A stretch of DNA of 60,676 bases from Candidatus Giovannonibacteria bacterium RIFCSPHIGHO2_12_FULL_44_22 (GTDB lineage: Bacteria; Patescibacteriota; Minisyncoccia; UBA11713; 2-01-FULL-45-33), in contig MFHU01000012.1 of NCBI GenBank assembly GCA_001778695.1, positions 1-60,676 of the forward strand. Direction: 5' to 3'. Below, piece after piece: positions 52,935-60,122 of this stretch. Positions within the stretch are counted from its first letter, which is position 1. Every line of letters begins with the position of its first letter. The notes beneath the pieces are model-generated. The model was not told the DNA's origin. It searched no databases and was given only the letters and a program-made list of their open reading frames with translations. Both the position numbers and the translations under genes were made by a program.

Positions 52935-53006
52935 GGGCGCATAGTTTAGCGGCAAAACGTTCCGTTCACATCGGAAAGACTCTAGGTTCGACTCCTAGTG
53001 CGCCCA
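52935..53006 (+). tRNA. tRNA-Val (anticodon CAC), no encoded CCA
   Basis: A manual cloverleaf fits: acceptor GGGCGCA/TGCGCCC, D-stem GTTT/AAAC, anticodon stem TTCCG/CGGAA with loop TTCACAT, and T-arm CTAGG-TTCGACT-CCTAG. Confidence 0.85.
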
Positions 53007-53894: not shown

Positions 53895-53920
53895 TCCGTT
53901 AATTTAGAAATTTCAAAATT

Positions 53921-53948
53921 AAAAACCCGCTATTTACAGTGGGTTTTT
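53921..53948 (+). terminator. Intrinsic terminator
   Basis: The hairpin is AAAAACCC-gctatttacagt-GGGTTTTT. Confidence 0.55.
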
Positions 53949-54024
53949 AATTTGTTAGTATAAAAGCCAGAATTTCAGTTCTCATTTTGGAAAAAATCAA
54001 AAAAAGAAAGAGGAGGATGAAGGG

Positions 54025-54294
54025 GTGAAAATTATTGAAAAAGGAAGGCATGTGGCAAAGCCGTGGTGGAAAAAATGGCTAGGAATAAACGGAACCAAGG
54101 AGTCCGCGGAGCTTCTTTGCGAGATATGCAAAACAAAATTTAAACTTCAACAAAATCGCGATACAACATTAATTAGGGCAGATTGTTACGATGAAAATTA
54201 CAGAATCATTTTCTATTTTATCCGCTGCCCGCATTGCACGCACATCAACAAATATGCCCGAGAGGCAGTTGAATCGGAAAACGAAATCGCTTAA
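54025..54294 (+). CDS. Small zinc-ribbon-like protein (89 aa)
   Basis: The start is GTG with an AGGAGGA SD. Cysteine pairs are CEIC...CPHC. Confidence 0.35.
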   Translation: MKIIEKGRHVAKPWWKKWLGINGTKESAELLCEICKTKFKLQQNRDTTLIRADCYDENYRIIFYFIRCPHCTHINKYAREAVESENEIA

Positions 54295-54301
54295 TTCTCC
54301 C

Positions 54302-54326
54302 AGCGGCCCAAATGGCCGCTTTTTTG
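54302..54326 (+). terminator. Intrinsic terminator
   Basis: The hairpin is AGCGGCC-caaat-GGCCGCT followed by T6. Confidence 0.65.
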
Positions 54327-54381
54327 TTTGTTTTACTCCAATAACTCAACGGCCGTCAAGACATTAGAGTAATTGTTTAAA

Positions 54382-54411
54382 TTTGACACGCGGTTTTTGA
54401 TTTGCTATGAA
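54382..54411 (+). promoter_or_regulatory. Cassette A promoter (near-consensus sigma-70 type)
   Basis: It has TTGACA (54382..54387), a 17-nt spacer and TATGAAT (54405..54411). The same element recurs at 56009..56038. Confidence 0.65.
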
Positions 54412-54426
54412 TGTTAATAGAGAAAA

Positions 54427-54496
54427 ACATAGTAGCTTATTCGCTAAGAATCCTTGCGCCGCAGATGATCGGGACTAAGACACATGCCGAAGGTGA
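54427..54496 (+). other. Cassette A leader segment homologous to 23S rRNA (counterpart of 58531..58598 in this window)
   Basis: In my manual alignment, GCGCCGCAGATGATCGGGACTAAGACACATGCCGAAGGTGAG matches 23S GCGCCGAAAATTATCGGGGCTAAGCAGAGTACCGAAGGTGAG at 32 of 42 positions. Weaker similarity extends about 28 nt further upstream. Confidence 0.7.
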
Positions 54497-54497
54497 G

Positions 54498-54518
54498 GAA
54501 TTGGTGCTTGAATTTTGG
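54498..54518 (+). repeat. Cassette A closing stem, 5' arm
   Basis: AATTGGTGCTTGAATTTTGGA is complementary to 55579..55599 over 21 bp, with one U-G pair. Confidence 0.8.
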
Positions 54519-54551
54519 AAAAAATAAAAAATTAGTTCATTGGAGGTGAAT

Positions 54552-54785
54552 ATGGCTCACAGAGATGATCTGGATAGAATCGAACAAGCAGTGCACAATG
54601 AGATCTTTTTCGAAGTGGTCTACAAGGAAATCGAGAAAAGAGGCGTGAACAGAAAAGATATACCGCAACACATTCATGTAAAACTTTTCAGAGAAGTGAA
54701 AGAGGTAACGAGAAGTCTGTCGGAAGAATTGCAATCGGCAATCTTTGAGATGACCAGAACGGGTGTAATGAAAGATTTTCCCTGA
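54552..54785 (+). CDS. Small ORF A1 (77 aa), unknown function
   Basis: A GGAGGTG SD lies 5 nt upstream of the ATG. The protein is helical and charged. Confidence 0.5.
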   Translation: MAHRDDLDRIEQAVHNEIFFEVVYKEIEKRGVNRKDIPQHIHVKLFREVKEVTRSLSEELQSAIFEMTRTGVMKDFP

Positions 54786-54802
54786 ACGAAAGGAGAACGG
54801 TC

Positions 54803-55108
54803 ATGGCGAAGAATAAAAAGAAATCTCGGAAATCGTTGGAAGGACTTTTTGCGGTCGCGGTTGCGAGATCTGGTGCGAGATCAAAAACGAAGAGAGTCGT
54901 AGACACTCAAAGTTTGATTCTCGCCAATGAAGATTTTGCAAAAGCTCTTGAAAGAGGCGAGAAGTGGGCCGTGGATCACTTACACAAAAGCGAAGAGTTG
55001 AACAACGGCAATTCGTGTGCCTTCGAACGAAAGTTCGATGGAGAGAAGCGACGCTGGTGTTCAAAATGTCCATTCCCTGATGGTTGCGTCATGTGTAATC
55101 TTAATTAA
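54803..55108 (+). CDS. Small ORF A2 (101 aa), basic N-terminus and C-terminal CxxC-x5-CxxC zinc knuckle
   Basis: It is preceded by the conserved AACGAAAGGAGAACGGTC cassette. It starts MAKNKKKSRKS and ends ...WCSKCPFPDGCVMCNLN. Confidence 0.55.
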   Translation: MAKNKKKSRKSLEGLFAVAVARSGARSKTKRVVDTQSLILANEDFAKALERGEKWAVDHLHKSEELNNGNSCAFERKFDGEKRRWCSKCPFPDGCVMCNLN

Positions 55109-55124
55109 CGAAAGGAGAACGGCC

Positions 55125-55280
55125 GTGGACAAAGAAACGGAAAAAATTTTCTATGGAGCATTGCAGCAAGTGGTTTCGAGACGGTGGGATGAAATCATGA
55201 GAAAGCGAAGGGTTCTTGCAGAAGGAGTTTGTGCGGCAATCCAACGGATGCGGGAGGAAAAAGAAAAACAACCGAAATGA
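55125..55280 (+). CDS. Small ORF A3 (51 aa), GTG start
   Basis: The same AACGAAAGGAGAACGGCC cassette lies directly upstream of the GTG at 55125. The longer ORF call from 55017 overlaps A2 in another frame. Confidence 0.4.
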   Translation: MDKETEKIFYGALQQVVSRRWDEIMRKRRVLAEGVCAAIQRMREEKEKQPK

Positions 55281-55305
55281 AAACAGTAACGAAAGGAGAA
55301 CAGTC

Positions 55306-55539
55306 ATGGGTATGAACGAATGCTATTTCCGTTTGCAACTGACAAAAAGCCTTCGCTTGGCAATCATCGAGGAACTAAACGGGAGAGGGTTTCCGGCAAA
55401 AATAGTAAATGACGAATTGGTGGTCGGCGAAGCGGAGAAGCATATAAAGTTTTCTGAAGATACCATCCAGGATGCAGTGGGATTAATAATTCAATCTACT
55501 GAACGCTTCCGTAGCGAACATGAAGATATCCGTTCCTAA
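55306..55539 (+). CDS. Small ORF A4 (77 aa), unknown function
   Basis: The AACGAAAGGAGAACAGTC cassette lies directly upstream of the ATG at 55306. Confidence 0.5.
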   Translation: MGMNECYFRLQLTKSLRLAIIEELNGRGFPAKIVNDELVVGEAEKHIKFSEDTIQDAVGLIIQSTERFRSEHEDIRS

Positions 55540-55578
55540 CTAAGAAAGGAGTAATTTGGGGAGCCTAATAAGTTCCCC

Positions 55579-55599
55579 TCCAAAATTCAAGCACCAGTT
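55579..55599 (+). repeat. Cassette A closing stem, 3' arm
   Basis: TCCAAAATTCAAGCACCAGTT is the reverse complement of the 5' arm. It is followed by TGGTAG, resembling the 23S sequence 3' of the helix-45 insertion. Confidence 0.8.
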
Positions 55600-55614
55600 G
55601 GTAGATTTTGACTC

Positions 55615-55638
55615 AAGCCCAAATATGGGCTTTTTTTT
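55615..55638 (+). terminator. Cassette A terminator
   Basis: The hairpin is AAGCCC-aaatat-GGGCTT followed by a T-run. Confidence 0.7.
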
Positions 55639-55677
55639 CACACTTTACAATATTCACAAAGGATATATGATTAAATT

Positions 55678-55980
55678 ATGGCTTTAACTAAAGAAGATCT
55701 ATCTCAAATCAGAGGATTACTTGATAACAAAATAGATGATTTTGCTAGAGTTGTGGCAAAAAGTTTTGAACAGGTGGCTACAAAAACCGACATAACCAGT
55801 TTAAAAAGCGATATCGCTAAATTAGAATTAGAAATAATGGAAATTAAAGAAAGAGTAATTTATATTGAACGAGATATTGCCGAAATTAGGAAGGGGTTGA
55901 TTTCTCGTATGGAACTTGAAGACATTTTGGCGCGGCTATCTTTGGTTGAGAAAAAATTAGGCATTGTCAGCGGAAAATAA
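55678..55980 (+). CDS. Coiled-coil protein (100 aa), unknown function
   Basis: It has heptad-like Leu/Ile/Glu/Lys periodicity throughout and lies between the two cassettes. Confidence 0.4.
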   Translation: MALTKEDLSQIRGLLDNKIDDFARVVAKSFEQVATKTDITSLKSDIAKLELEIMEIKERVIYIERDIAEIRKGLISRMELEDILARLSLVEKKLGIVSGK

Positions 55981-56008
55981 TTTGGAATATTGTTGCCACG
56001 GCTCGCTA

Positions 56009-56038
56009 TTGACGGCGGGTTTTTGATTTGCTATGAAT
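56009..56038 (+). promoter_or_regulatory. Cassette B promoter
   Basis: It has TTGACG, a 17-nt spacer (identical to cassette A except for 2 nt) and TATGAAT. Confidence 0.65.
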
Positions 56039-56053
56039 TTTAATAGAAAAAAA

Positions 56054-56123
56054 CATAGTAGCTTATTCGCTAAGAGTTTTTGCGCCGCAGATGATCGGGG
56101 CTAAATAGAGTACCGCAGGTGAG
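56054..56123 (+). other. Cassette B leader segment homologous to 23S rRNA
   Basis: GCGCCGCAGATGATCGGGGCTAAATAGAGTACCGCAGGTGAG matches the 23S segment at 36 of 42 positions by manual alignment. Confidence 0.75.
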
Positions 56124-56124
56124 G

Positions 56125-56145
56125 AATTGGTGCTTGAATTTTGGA
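56125..56145 (+). repeat. Cassette B closing stem, 5' arm
   Basis: It is identical to the cassette A 5' arm and pairs with 56837..56857 over 21 bp, with one G-U at a different position than in A. Confidence 0.8.
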
Positions 56146-56173
56146 TTAAAATTTTAGTTCTTTGGAGGTGAAT

Positions 56174-56416
56174 ATGGATAGGCTTGAAATTCAGGGAAAA
56201 ATTTTCCGCCTCGTTAATGGTTTGGTCGAAGAGCAAGGAAAGAAATGGGGGGATTTGCGTCGTGGACCGGAATTACGACTGACTATATGGGAGCTGGCAG
56301 ATGATTTAATCGAAGCTTGCGAGGAAGAAAGTTTGCCGGACAAAAAGCCGGAGGAGCAACTGGACCGTGGCCCCGAATTCTTAGCGAGAATCGAGGAGCG
56401 GGGCGGTAAATGGTAA
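56174..56416 (+). CDS. Small ORF B1 (80 aa), acidic, unknown function
   Basis: It has the same TTGGAGGTGAAT-ATG start context as A1, but the protein is unrelated to A1. Confidence 0.5.
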   Translation: MDRLEIQGKIFRLVNGLVEEQGKKWGDLRRGPELRLTIWELADDLIEACEEESLPDKKPEEQLDRGPEFLARIEERGGKW

Positions 56417-56432
56417 ACGAAAGGAGAACGTC

Positions 56433-56702
56433 ATGGCGAAGAAAATCAGAAAAACAGCGAATTGGAGAATAAGTGCAGAGGAACGAGATTGTGTAACGCA
56501 GAATCTCAGAAAGGCAGTGCATGATGTGTTCAACGCCGAGGTGAAAAACCTCAAGCTGAGGAAAGTCGATATCACAGCTTTGCAGAAACTGATGTTTGTT
56601 CAGTTTGTCGAGCGTGGAATTATTCGGCTCGTTGACGATTTCGTTTCTGTTGTAGAGATCGTTCTAAAGACAAGGAAGATATTTACTGGGGATTCCTCAT
56701 GA
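56433..56702 (+). CDS. Small ORF B2 (89 aa), unknown function
   Basis: The AACGAAAGGAGAACGTC cassette plus ATGGCGAAGAA matches the start context of A2. The remainder of the protein differs. Confidence 0.5.
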   Translation: MAKKIRKTANWRISAEERDCVTQNLRKAVHDVFNAEVKNLKLRKVDITALQKLMFVQFVERGIIRLVDDFVSVVEIVLKTRKIFTGDSS

Positions 56703-56836
56703 AAAATCACGAGTCGAATCCCCTCCAAATTTAGTTCGTTGGCCAAGCTGAGAAGAAAAGTGGAAATAATGGCGAGCTTCACGAAAACGACGAAAGGAGT
56801 ATTTGAGAAGCAGGCGGAGAGAAGCCCCTGTTTCTC

Positions 56837-56857
56837 TCCAAAATTCAAGCATCAATT
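56837..56857 (+). repeat. Cassette B closing stem, 3' arm
   Basis: TCCAAAATTCAAGCATCAATT is followed by GGTAG, as in cassette A. Confidence 0.8.
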
Positions 56858-56872
56858 GGTAGATTTTGACTC

Positions 56873-56895
56873 AAGCCCGCATAAGGGCTTTTTTC
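56873..56895 (+). terminator. Cassette B terminator
   Basis: The hairpin is AAGCCC-gcataa-GGGCTT followed by a T-run. The stem is conserved with cassette A while the loop differs. Confidence 0.7.
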
Positions 56896-56901
56896 TTTTT
56901 A

Positions 56902-56929
56902 CCCCCACACCAATGCATTGGTGTGGGGG
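56902..56929. terminator. 28-nt perfect GC-rich palindrome (second terminator or insulator) just upstream of the rRNA promoter
   Basis: CCCCCACACCAATGCATTGGTGTGGGGG is followed by TTTAT. Confidence 0.5.
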
Positions 56930-56944
56930 TTTATCCCCACCCTA

Positions 56945-56972
56945 TTGACTTCCAAAACCATGGGACTATAAT
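56945..56972 (+). promoter_or_regulatory. Candidate 23S rRNA promoter
   Basis: It has TTGACT (56945..56950), a 16-nt spacer and TATAAT (56967..56972), about 175 nt upstream of the mature 23S 5' end. Confidence 0.55.
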
Positions 56973-57411
56973 GGCATTACACAAACTATGTTAAACAAAT
57001 TCAACTTAAATAAGCCAACAAAGCGGGAACACTGTTAGGTCGTCTTAACTTGTATTCAAAATCCCGCCTACGGCGGGATTTTGAGTTCATAGCGCGTGCG
57101 AACTTTGACAAGATTAGTTAATTCGTAAGTGCATTTTCTAACAAGACGGTTATAAGGGCATATGGCGGATGGCTCGAGATAAGATGGGCGATGAAGGACG
57201 TGGCGTGCCTGCGATAAGCTTGGGGGAGGTGGCTAGCAACCTTTGATCCCAAGATTTCCGAATGGGGAAACCCCGCGCCGAGAAATCGGCGTGATCTTGC
57301 ATCTTAAATGGTGCCGGAAGCGAACCCGCTGAAGTAAAACATTTCAGTAAGCGGAGGAAAAGAAAAAAATATTTATTCCCTTAGTAGCGGCGAGCGAAAA
57401 GGGAGCAGCCC

Positions 57412-57540
57412 AGATCGTCAATGCTGCGCATTGACGCGCTGAAAACGCTGACTGGACGCTGACAGTCGCAGAATAAATTCTGCGTTAGTCTGCGTTTCTT
57501 CTGCGTAAATCGGCGCGCCACTGCGCAGCAGTGGCGAAGT
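57412..57540 (+). repeat. 129-nt structured intervening sequence, copy 1 (domain I, around the E. coli ~270 region)
   Basis: It is extra sequence relative to E. coli, between GCAGCCCAGA and the CTGGAAAGG block, and is homologous to 58597..58725. Confidence 0.75.
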
Positions 57541-57781: not shown

Positions 57782-57842
57782 GCCCGGTGAGGGCGATGAA
57801 ATAGTACCTGAAACCATATGCTTACAAAGAGTCGGAGCCCCG

Positions 57843-57956
57843 CCCCACTTTTACGATGTAATTTTTATTTGCGAAGTATTACCACGCGAGTAATCTTGCA
57901 AAGATAAAAAAGTCTGAGAGACTTTTTTATGAAATTATTGTTTTGTAAAAGTGGGG
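57843..57956 (+). other. AT-rich expansion/intervening sequence in the helix-25 region
   Basis: A 12-bp perfect closing stem (CCCCACTTTTAC / GTAAAAGTGGGG) encloses about 90 nt of AT-rich hairpins that E. coli lacks at this point. Confidence 0.65.
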
Positions 57957-58596
57957 CTGGGTGACGGCGTGCCTATTGAAGAATGAGCCAACGAGTTATC
58001 CAACACCTTTCGTCTAAGGGCACCTAGCCCGGAGGCACAGGGAAACCAAGTGTTAAAAGCGCGATTTTCTCCGACGTTACGTCGGAGAAAAAAAGATGTT
58101 GGATAGACCCGAAGCGAGATGAGCTTACCATGACCAGGGTGAACCTCGGAGAAATCCGGGGGGAGGCCCGAACCGTTTAGCCGTTCAAAACTATCGGATG
58201 AGTTGTGGTAAGGAGTGAAAAGCTAATCGAATCTCGTAATAGCTGGTTCTCTCCGAAATAGCTTTTCGGCTAGCGCCCGCCAAAAATTAGCAGGTAGAGC
58301 TACTAGATGGACTTGACAGGGAGAAATCTCGCGAGTCCAACTAAACTCCGAATGGCTAATCTATTTAGGCGGGTAGTCAGACCATGGGGGCTAAGCTCCA
58401 TCGGTCAAAAGGGAAACAGCCCAGATCTCAATCTAAGGTCCCTAAATTTCTGCTAAGTGCAAAGAAGGTGGTGAAGTTTCTTAAACAGCGAGGAGGTTGG
58501 CTTAGAAGCAGCCATCCTTTAAAGAGTGCGTAACAGCTCACTCGTCAAGAGACTTCGCGCCGAAAATTATCGGGGCTAAGCAGAGTACCGAAGGTG

Positions 58597-58725
58597 AGAT
58601 CGTCAGTGCATAGCACTGACGCGCGGAAAGCGCGGACTTGACGCAGACAGTCGCAGAAAATAATTCTGCATGTTCTGCGTTTATTCTGCGTAAATCGGCG
58701 CGCCAATACTATGCATTGGCGAGGT
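58597..58725 (+). repeat. 129-nt structured intervening sequence, copy 2 (helix-45 position)
   Basis: It is inserted after ACCGAAGGTG and before GTAGGAGAGCGTTCC. It shares the core GACAGTCGCAGAA...TTCTGCGTAAATCGGCGCGCCA with copy 1. Confidence 0.75.
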
Positions 58726-59485: not shown

Positions 59486-60122
59486 TCTGGAATTATTTTG
59501 AAATGATTCCGGAAGGACTAGGACTGTTATAGCGATACATATGTTAAACAAAAATAGCTGCCTCATTGTGTAGCAATACGCAATTGGTCCAAAATTACAT
59601 GGCTATATGCTGGAAACTCCGCAAGTATCCTCAAGTACTTTGTGTCCTAAACCAGGTTTGGGTCATAAAGTGAAAATCTGTGAGGTGGCGCGGACAATCA
59701 GCAGGAAACTGTAATATCTAAAGGAGGAAAAGAACATGAAAAATGACTGGGACGTACTTGTCCAAAGACGTTGGTGGATGTCTCGTGCAGACATCGACGT
59801 TCTTTACTACAAGTGGAAGACGGGACAAATTCAAGTTGGAGATGAAGAAATGCTGAGAGAGTTTCAGGCTGTTCGTTCTGAAGAAATAAAGATCGAAGCA
59901 GCCGAGATGCCAGAATCTCCAGCTGTCTTCATGTTCGGCGGAATGTTGGATGCAATGTTCGAGAAAACTCCAAATGGGCAAAAGTAGTTCAAGCCCTTCC
60001 TGTAAGGAAGGCGCAAAGAAACTCTTTGCCTCTTCCTTTAGGTATTACAGGATCCTCAGATACCATACGCCGTGCATCTCTAAGTAGATGAAGATATGGT
60101 ACTTCGCCCCAAGGAAGCGAAC
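59486..60122 (+). mobile_element. Group I intron in 23S rRNA (between CCUAAGGU and AGCGAAAUUCC, near E. coli position ~1931)
   Basis: It interrupts a universally conserved exon sequence. Four core-like elements are present: P-like TGCTGGAAA (59608..59616), Q-like AATCAGCAGG (59696..59705), R-like TCAGATACCATACG (60056..60069) and S-like AAGATATGGTAC (60091..60102). A P8-like hairpin CATCT-ctaagt-AGATG is also present. The 3' boundary is uncertain by a few nt. Confidence 0.75.
59736..59987 (+). CDS. Intron-encoded small ORF (83 aa), not a recognisable homing endonuclease
   Basis: An AAGGAGG SD lies 8 nt upstream of the ATG. The ORF sits in the loop closed by a 20-bp stem (59709..59728 with 60031..60050). 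No LAGLIDADG, GIY-YIG, HNH or His-Cys motif is visible. Confidence 0.5.
   Translation: MKNDWDVLVQRRWWMSRADIDVLYYKWKTGQIQVGDEEMLREFQAVRSEEIKIEAAEMPESPAVFMFGGMLDAMFEKTPNGQK

What the first reader, a model, noticed from the sequence alone, without database searches (positions are those of the whole stretch)
54498..56857. A 21-bp long-range stem encloses each ORF block, with wobble substitutions at different positions in the two cassettes
The 5' arm AATTGGTGCTTGAATTTTGGA is identical in both cassettes. It pairs with TCCAAAATTCAAGCACCAGTT in cassette A, across about 1.06 kb, and with TCCAAAATTCAAGCATCAATT in cassette B, across about 0.69 kb. The two 3' arms differ at two positions. Each difference only switches between a Watson-Crick pair and a G-U pair, which is the signature of selection on RNA pairing rather than on DNA sequence. 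Long perfect stems at the base of rRNA intervening sequences are classic RNase III substrates. Cleavage here would release an ORF-bearing RNA from its rRNA-like leader. In addition, part of the 3' arm region (CCTCCAA in A, CTCTCCAA in B) is complementary to the TTGGAGG Shine-Dalgarno of the first ORF. This allows an alternative pairing that could gate translation.
Basis: seen in the sequence. Interest (0 to 1): 0.8.

Follow-up and report, generated by a model that had tools for sequence, protein, structure and literature searches.

The report
Protein-coding rRNA intervening sequences relocated outside 23S
The 21-bp stem is the basal stem of a protein-coding intervening sequence normally found in helix 45 of the 23S rRNA of Giovannonibacteria; here two copies sit outside the rRNA gene as self-contained small-protein operons that keep this stem.

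Summary
Identical 5' arms (54499-54519, 56125-56145) pair with 3' arms (55579-55599, 56837-56857). Each stem has 20 Watson-Crick pairs and one G-U.

What it is: the ~70 nt before each 5' arm are a copy of 23S rRNA sequence lying just 5' of helix 45, and each 3' arm is followed by GGTAG, as in 23S. The same arms enclose small ORFs inside genuine 23S genes of four related organisms. So the stem is an extended helix 45, the classical site of RNase III-excised intervening sequences (IVS).

In the window, two such IVSs lie upstream of the 23S gene. Each has its own promoter-like site and terminator. The window's own helix 45 holds an unrelated non-coding IVS.

Across 7 distinct copies all 147 arm cells pair, with two compensatory changes and two wobble changes. 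The two wobbles in the window alone are not significant (P about 0.03-0.11). The cargo genes are real (dN/dS well below 1), but have no recognisable function. Cargo differs between near-identical strains, and the swap is bounded by the arms.

RNase III cleavage is inferred, not shown. The proposed Shine-Dalgarno gating is not conserved. I rate this a new variant of a known kind.

The parts
54383..54411 (+). Cassette A promoter-like site: TTGACA (54383-54388), 17-nt spacer, TGc-TATGAA (-10 hexamer at 54406-54411)
   Evidence: Read from the sequence. It is 95% identical between cassettes A and B, and this part is not rRNA-like. The consensus scan did not list it, because the -10 hexamer lacks the final T. 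Its function is inferred.
54426..54498 (+). Cassette A leader derived from 23S rRNA, the segment just 5' of helix 45
   Evidence: 75% identical to the window's own 23S at 58535-58598. 47 of 48 nt before the arm are identical to the 23S of L055.
54499..54519 (+). Cassette A 5' arm
54552..55539 (+). Cassette A cargo: ORFs A1 (54552-54785), A2 (54803-55108), A3 (55125-55280) and A4 (55306-55539), separated by the linker AACGAAAGGAGAAC..ATGG
   Evidence: A1 and A2 are under purifying selection against their IVS-borne homologues. No family match was found.
55558..55578 (+). Hairpin ending flush against the 3' arm of cassette A
   Evidence: A hairpin is present at this place in all 7 copies, with at least 3 unrelated sequences.
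55579..55599 (+). Cassette A 3' arm (one U-G pair), followed by GGTAG as in 23S
55615..55640 (+). Cassette A intrinsic terminator
56009..56037 (+). Cassette B promoter-like site (TTGACG, 17-nt spacer, TATGAA)
56052..56124 (+). Cassette B 23S-derived leader
   Evidence: Its 3' part resembles an L069-type 23S.
56125..56145 (+). Cassette B 5' arm
56174..56702 (+). Cassette B cargo: ORFs B1 (56174-56416) and B2 (56433-56702)
   Evidence: B2 has no homologue other than itself.
56805..56836 (+). Hairpin ending flush against the 3' arm of cassette B
   Evidence: z = -4.2.
56837..56857 (+). Cassette B 3' arm (one G-U pair), followed by GGTAG
56873..56898 (+). Cassette B intrinsic terminator
53900..57076 (+). 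About 3.2 kb block absent from the syntenic locus of L056. It holds a zinc-ribbon ORF (54025-54294), cassette A, a coiled-coil ORF (55678-55980) and cassette B.
   Evidence: In L056 the MscS-like gene is followed within about 180 nt by the 23S upstream region.
58599..58722 (+). The window's own 23S helix-45 IVS. It is non-coding and from a different family; it occupies the site that the coding IVS occupies in relatives.

Best explanation
Each 'cassette' is a protein-coding 23S rRNA intervening sequence (IVS) of the helix-45 type. It has been copied out of an rRNA gene together with about 70 nt of 5'-flanking and 5 nt of 3'-flanking 23S sequence. It now sits between a sigma-70-like promoter and an intrinsic terminator, upstream of the resident 23S gene. 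The 21-bp stem is the extended helix 45 that closes the IVS. In the transcript it pairs the 5' leader with the 3' trailer. Most likely it is cut by RNase III, as IVS stems are in other bacteria. That would release a polycistronic mRNA for 2-4 small proteins, whose 3' end is guarded by the hairpin that abuts the 3' arm. At the DNA level, the arms and conserved flanks also serve as the boundaries at which cargo is exchanged between copies.

Shown: the homology to genuine helix-45 IVSs, maintenance of pairing, cargo under purifying selection, and a cargo swap bounded by the arms. Inferred: promoter use, RNase III cleavage, the protective role of the hairpin, and that the stem still matters outside the rRNA.
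For: - **Leader and trailer are 23S-derived.** The leader matches 23S just 5' of helix 45, and the 3' arm is followed by GGTAG as in 23S.
- **The same arms lie in real 23S genes.** They enclose SD-led ORFs inside full-length 23S genes of L055, L056, L069 and L070, exactly in the hairpin after CCGAAG.
- **The cargo is homologous.** A1 is 78% identical to L055 ORF1, and the C-terminal part of A2 is 64% identical to the L056 ORF.
- **Pairing is maintained.** In 7 distinct copies all 147 cells pair. Two pairs changed on both sides (U-A to C-G, G-C to A-U) and two on one side to G-U. None is broken, and 12 of 500 shuffles do as well. The G-U pairs work only on the + strand.
- **The arms are far more conserved than neighbouring neutral sites.** There is 1 difference in 42 nt, against about 21% divergence in the adjacent ORF with saturated dS (P = 5e-4).
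- **A flush hairpin is always present.** It ends against the 3' arm in all 7 copies, with at least 3 unrelated sequences.
- **The stem dominates whole-transcript folds**.
- **Cargo swaps at the arms.** Strain L036 is 99.9% identical up to 20 nt past the 5' arm and from the first base of the 3' arm onward, with entirely different ORFs in between.
- **The arrangement is not an assembly artefact.** It recurs in many independent assemblies.
- **Precedent.** Helix-45 IVS stems are RNase III substrates in Coxiella, Salmonella and Leptospira (PMC4990558). CPR 23S genes have IVS-type insertions at this site (PMC11270868).
Against: - No transcript, cleavage or protein data exist for this organism.
- RNase III could not be looked for outside the 60 kb window.
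- Both L055 and L056 were found by searching with the arm sequence, so only L069 and L070 are unbiased tests of arm variation.
- Both compensatory changes occur in rRNA-borne copies, not in standalone ones.
- Each standalone copy carries only one change, so selection on the stem outside the rRNA is not demonstrated.
- Related operons in L076 and L077 have no 5' arm, so the stem is dispensable for expression in some settings.
- The promoter is a consensus-like reading that the scan did not list.
Confidence: 0.7

Rival explanations
1. Relic stem. The stem worked only while the element sat in 23S rRNA. In the standalone cassettes it is inherited baggage, kept by recent origin or by gene conversion from rRNA-borne copies, with no role in expression.
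For: There is only one substitution per standalone stem, and the within-window wobble pattern is not significant. L076 keeps a truncated 3' arm with no 5' arm, and L077 has neither, yet both carry intact A1-family ORFs. The mosaic leaders of A and B point to repeated conversion from different 23S donors.
Against: Both substitutions that did occur preserve pairing. The flush hairpin and both arms are intact in all three standalone versions (A, B, L036). The cassettes kept promoter-to-terminator units in which the arms are the best-conserved part.
Confidence: 0.2
2. DNA-level element. The arms are terminal inverted repeats or recombination handles of a mobile cassette, and the RNA pairing is incidental.
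For: The cargo swap between 99.9%-identical strains is bounded by the arms. Cargo is mosaic among copies. The element occurs in several genomic contexts.
Against: No transposase, integrase or homing endonuclease lies in or next to the cassettes. There is no target-site duplication (the flanks are GAGG and GGTAG). The insertion point in rRNA is always the tip of helix 45. The one-sided changes are G-U on the transcribed strand only, and the double changes are compensatory. This role can coexist with the RNA role as plain homologous recombination.
Confidence: 0.07
3. Translational switch. The CUCC at the inner edge of the 3' arm pairs alternatively with the first Shine-Dalgarno sequence and gates translation.
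For: CCTCCAA and CTCTCCAA are complementary to 7 and 6 nt of TTGGAGG. CTCC is invariant in all 7 copies.
Against: The first SD is AAAGGAG-type in L036, L056 and L070, which leaves only 4-5 nt of complementarity. CTCC is already committed to the long stem and the flush hairpin. Whole-transcript folds do not use this pairing.
Confidence: 0.05
4. Coding constraint. The 3' arm lies in a short ORF (..SPKFKHQLVDFDSSP..), and the two differences are synonymous third-position changes.
For: In cassettes A and B both differences are synonymous in that frame (CAC CAG versus CAT CAA).
Against: That frame runs through the terminator. In L056 the hairpin loop differs by 2 nt, so the frame is not kept. In 23S-borne copies the frame ends in rRNA.
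Confidence: 0.02

Closest known systems
Helix-45 intervening sequences of bacterial 23S rRNA (Salmonella, Leptospira, Coxiella burnetii), excised by RNase III
   Same: The position is the same (tip of helix 45) in the homologues L055, L056, L069 and L070. Long complementary termini form the basal stem (28 bp in Coxiella, 21 bp here). An ORF lies in the loop. Distribution is sporadic and mosaic, suggesting horizontal exchange (PMC4990558).
   Different: The window's two copies are outside the rRNA gene and have their own promoter-like site and terminator. The cargo is 1-5 small ORFs with strong SDs under purifying selection, not a single decaying S23p ORF with a poor SD. Cargo is exchanged between near-identical strains.
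S23p / 23S_rRNA_IVP proteins (Pfam PF05635) encoded by IVSs
   Same: They are small helical proteins encoded inside an rRNA IVS.
   Different: No Pfam match even at E = 1. The A1 family is predicted as a two-helix hairpin with no structural match in the PDB, and it has only 4 representatives among 1.84 billion proteins.
rRNA insertions of CPR bacteria (Tsurumaki et al. 2024, PMC11270868)
   Same: The clade is the same. That survey reports IVS-type insertions at the known IVS sites of 23S, and long insertions of unknown function.
   Different: That survey characterises group I/II introns and homing endonucleases. It does not, in the passages read, describe polycistronic small-protein IVSs or copies outside rRNA genes. 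I did not read its supplementary tables.
RNase III processing stems that flank 16S and 23S in pre-rRNA and phage early mRNAs
   Same: Long-range pairing of sequences about 1 kb apart brackets the functional RNA and creates a double-stranded cleavage site.
   Different: Here the bracketed RNA is an mRNA, and the stem is inherited from an rRNA insertion rather than from the rRNA spacer.
Integron gene cassettes
   Same: Promoterless small ORF modules are swapped inside a conserved platform, with strain-level variation in content.
   Different: There is no integrase and no attC sites. Exchange appears to use the conserved arms, flanks and linkers by ordinary recombination. The resemblance is functional only.

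Membership tests
23S rRNA helix-45 IVS (RNase III type) | Inserted at the tip of helix 45 of a 23S rRNA gene | tested here: not met
   The window's cassettes lie 0.3-2.7 kb upstream of the 23S gene (Rfam LSU match starts at 57142). Their homologues in L055, L056, L069 and L070 do meet the criterion. The cassettes carry 23S flanks of that exact site. They are therefore derived from this family but are not resident members.
23S rRNA helix-45 IVS (RNase III type) | Complementary termini forming a stable basal stem | tested here: met
   The stem is 21 bp. All 147 cells pair in 7 copies, with 2 compensatory pairs. It is present in the minimum-energy and centroid folds.
23S rRNA helix-45 IVS (RNase III type) | Excised by RNase III without religation, fragmenting the 23S rRNA | not testable with these tools
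   No RNA data are available. No RNase III signature was found in the window or the fetched loci, and the rest of the genome was not available.
S23p / 23S_rRNA_IVP (PF05635) | The IVS-encoded protein matches the four-helix-bundle family | tested here: not met
   No Pfam hit at E <= 1 for any window ORF. No NCBIfam or PHROG hit of note.
Group I/II intron with homing endonuclease | Ribozyme core and a LAGLIDADG or GIY-YIG ORF | tested here: not met
   No Rfam intron match, even at E <= 10, in 53900-57200. No endonuclease domain in the cargo.
IS / MITE with terminal inverted repeats | Transposase (or a trans-acting one) and target-site duplication | tested here: not met
   No transposase-like ORF. 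The flanks GAGG and GGTAG are not a duplication. The one-sided changes are wobble pairs on one strand only.

The most novel reading that the evidence does not exclude
A lineage-specific family of rRNA intervening sequences works as a gene-cassette platform. Polycistronic mRNAs for fast-swapping small proteins are hosted in helix 45 of 23S rRNA and released by rRNA processing. They can leave the rRNA gene and persist as autonomous promoter-to-terminator units that keep the processing stem. The arms act both as an RNase III site in the RNA and as recombination handles for cargo exchange in the DNA.
Probability: 0.3. Interest if true: 0.8.

Novelty: new variant of a known kind. Interest (0 to 1): 0.6.

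Why it matters
IVSs of bacterial rRNA have been known for 35 years, but they have no agreed function, and their ORFs are usually viewed as decaying passengers. In this family the ORFs are under purifying selection and have strong ribosome-binding sites. They come in arrays of up to five, differ between near-identical strains, and have been kept when the element left the rRNA gene.

This makes two questions testable. Are IVS-borne genes expressed through rRNA processing? Is the processing stem useful to an mRNA in its own right? It also matters for annotation: ORFs inside rRNA genes are routinely masked, which is probably why these proteins look like orphans.

Tried and rejected
**Searches that found nothing**
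- Rfam at the gathering threshold and at E <= 10 gave no family for the leader or the cassettes.
- Exact-pattern scans of viral contigs with a leader 17-mer, the 3' flank and the arm gave only chance hits.
- The plasmid and phage collections had no match to the 5' module.
- A2 and B2 protein searches found only themselves.
- An all-against-all comparison and an alignment of the cargo ORFs showed no common family.
- Foldseek of the A1 model against the PDB found nothing.

**Ideas rejected**
- *The promoter region is also decayed 23S.* Identity there is at chance level (12 of 45).
- *The 3' arm is coding.* See the rival explanations.
- *Split 23S gene.* I considered this for L074/L075 and L082 but could not separate it from chimeric assembly. 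In L082 the downstream 23S part is only 73% identical to the window's own, which points to a cross-species join.
Full report
**1. The observation**

The 5' arm AATTGGTGCTTGAATTTTGGA occurs at 54499-54519 and 56125-56145. Its reverse complement, with one mismatch each, occurs at 55579-55599 and 56837-56857. None of 100 shuffles gave such a match. The arms are 1059 and 691 nt apart. The mismatches are an A-to-G change at arm position 19 in cassette A and a C-to-T change at position 16 in cassette B. Both give G-U pairs on the + strand RNA. The stem survives in the minimum-energy and centroid folds of both complete transcripts.

**2. Anatomy of a cassette**

The two cassettes share two modules.
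- The 5' module (54383-54524 and 56009-56150) is 86% identical between them.
- The 3' module (55572-55636 and 56830-56894) is 89% identical.

The 5' module starts with TTGACA, a 17-nt spacer and TGc-TATGAA. I read this as a promoter; the scan did not list it because the hexamer lacks the final T. The 3' module ends in an intrinsic terminator.

Between the modules lie unrelated small ORFs: four in A and two in B. Each is preceded by a nearly invariant linker, AACGAAAGGAGAAC(G)GTCATGG, which occurs nowhere else in the window. A hairpin ends exactly one base before each 3' arm.

**3. The leader is 23S rRNA**

A search with the 5' module hit the window's own 23S gene at 58535-58598, with 75% identity over 65 nt. 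By my knowledge of the E. coli sequence (GCUCACUGGUCGAG...CACCGAAGCUGCGG, followed by helix 45 and then GGUAGGGGAGCG), this is the segment immediately 5' of helix 45. The cassette 3' arm is followed by GGTAG, as helix 45 is in 23S. Homology to 23S starts near 54426. The promoter part is not rRNA-like: 12 of 45 positions match, which is chance level.

**4. The same element inside real 23S genes**

A scan of one genome per species with the arm pattern found two Candidatus Giovannonibacteria genomes, L055 and L056. In both, the arms sit inside a full-length 23S gene and enclose SD-led ORFs. In the Rfam alignment, the 5' arm begins in the 5' strand of the hairpin that follows CCGAAG.
- L055 ORF1 is 78% identical to A1.
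- The L056 ORF is 64% identical to the C-terminal 73 residues of A2.

A protein search with A1 gave six more clusters. Their contigs fall into two groups.
- *More 23S-borne IVSs:* L069, with four SD-led ORFs in the IVS, and L070/L071, with one ORF.
- *Operons outside rRNA:* L074/L075, L076 and L077.

L056 is syntenic with the window. There the MscS-like gene is followed within about 180 nt by the 23S upstream region. So window 53900-57076, which holds both cassettes and two further ORFs, is an insertion relative to L056. The window's own helix 45 carries a different, non-coding IVS at 58599-58722.

**5. Is pairing selected?**

Within the window alone the case is weak. Of the 126 possible single substitutions in the arms, 21 keep pairing. 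Two of two pair-preserving changes has P of 0.03-0.11, depending on the transition share.

Across seven distinct copies the case is better.

| Measure | Result |
|---|---|
| Cells that pair | 147 of 147 |
| Pair 4/18 | U-A changed to C-G in L070 |
| Pair 5/17 | G-C changed to A-U in L069 |
| Pairs 3/19 and 6/16 | G-U variants in cassettes A and B |
| Broken pairs | none |
| Shuffles doing as well | 12 of 500 |

L069 and L070 were found through protein similarity, so their arms were not preselected. L055 and L056 were preselected.

The arms are also far more conserved than nearby neutral sites. Cassette A and L055 differ at 1 of 42 arm positions. The adjacent ORF is 21% diverged, with synonymous sites saturated (P = 5e-4). 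The G-U variants work only on the + strand, so the constraint is on RNA.

The flush hairpin is present in all seven copies with at least three unrelated sequences. That is structural conservation without sequence conservation.

**6. The cargo**

The cargo genes are under purifying selection.

| Comparison | dN | dS |
|---|---|---|
| A1 versus L055 ORF1 | 0.15 | saturated |
| A2 C-terminal part versus L056 ORF | 0.19 | 0.60 |

No Pfam, NCBIfam or PHROG family matches them. The A1 family is predicted as two long helices (pLDDT 79) with no structural match in the PDB. It has only 4 representatives among 1.84 billion proteins, and one of those is a spurious coiled-coil hit. Function is unknown. 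ORFs inside rRNA genes are rarely called by gene finders, which likely adds to their orphan status.

**7. Cargo exchange**

Strain L036 is 99.97% identical to the window over 9.4 kb, up to 20 nt past the 5' arm of cassette A. It is 99.86% identical again from the first base of the 3' arm onward. Between these points it has two entirely different ORFs and a B-type hairpin.

The leaders of A and B are themselves mosaic.
- They are 95% identical in the promoter and 5' leader.
- They are only 77% identical in the 48 nt before the arm. There, A matches an L055-type 23S (47 of 48) and B resembles an L069-type 23S.

The standalone arrangement recurs in many independent assemblies from ENA, JGI and NCBI, so it is not an assembly artefact.

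**8. Mechanism**

*Shown:*
- The cassettes derive from helix-45 IVSs.
- The stem is maintained as RNA pairing in the family.
- The cargo is coding.
- Cargo swaps at the arms.

*Inferred:*
- Each cassette is transcribed from its own promoter to its terminator.
- The leader and trailer form the 21-bp helix.
- RNase III cuts the helix, as it cuts IVS stems in Coxiella, Salmonella and Leptospira (PMC4990558).
- The released mRNA ends just after the flush hairpin, which would protect it from 3' exonucleases.
- The strong SDs then drive translation.

Whether the stem still matters outside the rRNA is open. L076 and L077 carry A1-family operons without a 5' arm.

The SD-gating idea is not supported. 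Three of the seven copies have a different first SD. The constant CTCC is explained by the arm and the hairpin.

**9. Comparison and novelty**

Helix-45 IVSs, their RNase III stems and IVS-borne ORFs (S23p) are known (PMC4990558). IVS-type insertions at this site in CPR 23S genes have been reported (PMC11270868). Three things appear new:
- polycistronic, selected small-protein cargo with a conserved linker;
- strain-level cargo exchange;
- standalone copies with rRNA-derived leaders that keep the stem.

I file this as a new variant of a known kind. The window's copies fail the defining criterion of residing in a 23S gene, so they are derivatives of the IVS family rather than members.

**10. 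Limits**

- There are no RNA or protein data.
- Only seven arm pairs are available, and two of them were found with the arm itself.
- RNase III was not found in the sequence available, and the rest of the genome could not be searched.
- The contigs L074/L075 and L082, where the cargo and 3' arm run into a 23S 3' part without the 5' part, may be chimeric assemblies.

Noticed in passing
window 57413-57535 and 58599-58722: The window's 23S gene carries the same ~125-nt non-coding, rod-like insertion at two different sites, one of them helix 45. The copies are 87% identical, and their basal stems differ by compensatory changes. This is a second IVS family, distinct from the coding one.
   Followed up: partly
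window 57838-57963 and 59486-60122: Two further insertions in the 23S gene relative to L055. One is at a helix-25-type site. The other is ~640 nt long and holds an 83-aa ORF (59736-59987). Other strains carry LAGLIDADG ORFs in this gene (L042, L043).
   Followed up: no
L074 3540-3926; L075 1-786; L082 6180-8943: In these contigs a non-rRNA promoter (L074/L075) or the window-type leader (L082) is followed by cargo, the 3' arm and then the 3' part of a 23S gene, with no 5' part. This is either a 23S gene split at the IVS or a chimeric assembly through shared sequence. In L082 the 23S part is only 73% identical to the window's own 23S, which favours a chimera.
   Followed up: partly
L074 3555-3610; L075 1-62; L076 733-784: A second conserved promoter and 5'-UTR module (TTGACATATT..TATAATC.CATACAGAAAGT) heads A1-family operons in two different genomic contexts, after gyrA and after a serS-like gene. 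These carry a full (L075) or truncated (L076) 3' arm and no 5' arm.
   Followed up: partly
window 54786-54806, 55108-55128, 55289-55309, 56417-56436; pseudo-linkers at 55540-55556 and 56786-56804: A nearly invariant inter-ORF linker, AACGAAAGGAGAAC(G)GTCATGG, separates unrelated ORFs and recurs in the homologous loci. A linker-like copy with no ORF after it precedes the terminal hairpin, which suggests ORF gain and loss by recombination between linkers.
   Followed up: partly
window 54025-54294 and 55678-55980: Two ordinary-looking small genes belong to the 3.2-kb block absent from L056. One is a zinc-ribbon protein. The other is a coiled-coil protein with weak, sub-threshold similarity to GpsB (E = 2e-5).
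   Followed up: no
L038-L043, position 1 (about window 55627): Many assemblies break 51 nt upstream of the coiled-coil ORF, inside the 3' module of cassette A. This is what a strain-polymorphic cassette would be expected to cause.
   Followed up: no
window 1-57141: There is no 16S rRNA gene in the 57 kb upstream of the 23S gene, only tRNA-Val at 52935-53006. The 23S has its own promoter-like site at 56945-56972, so the rRNA genes appear unlinked.
   Followed up: no
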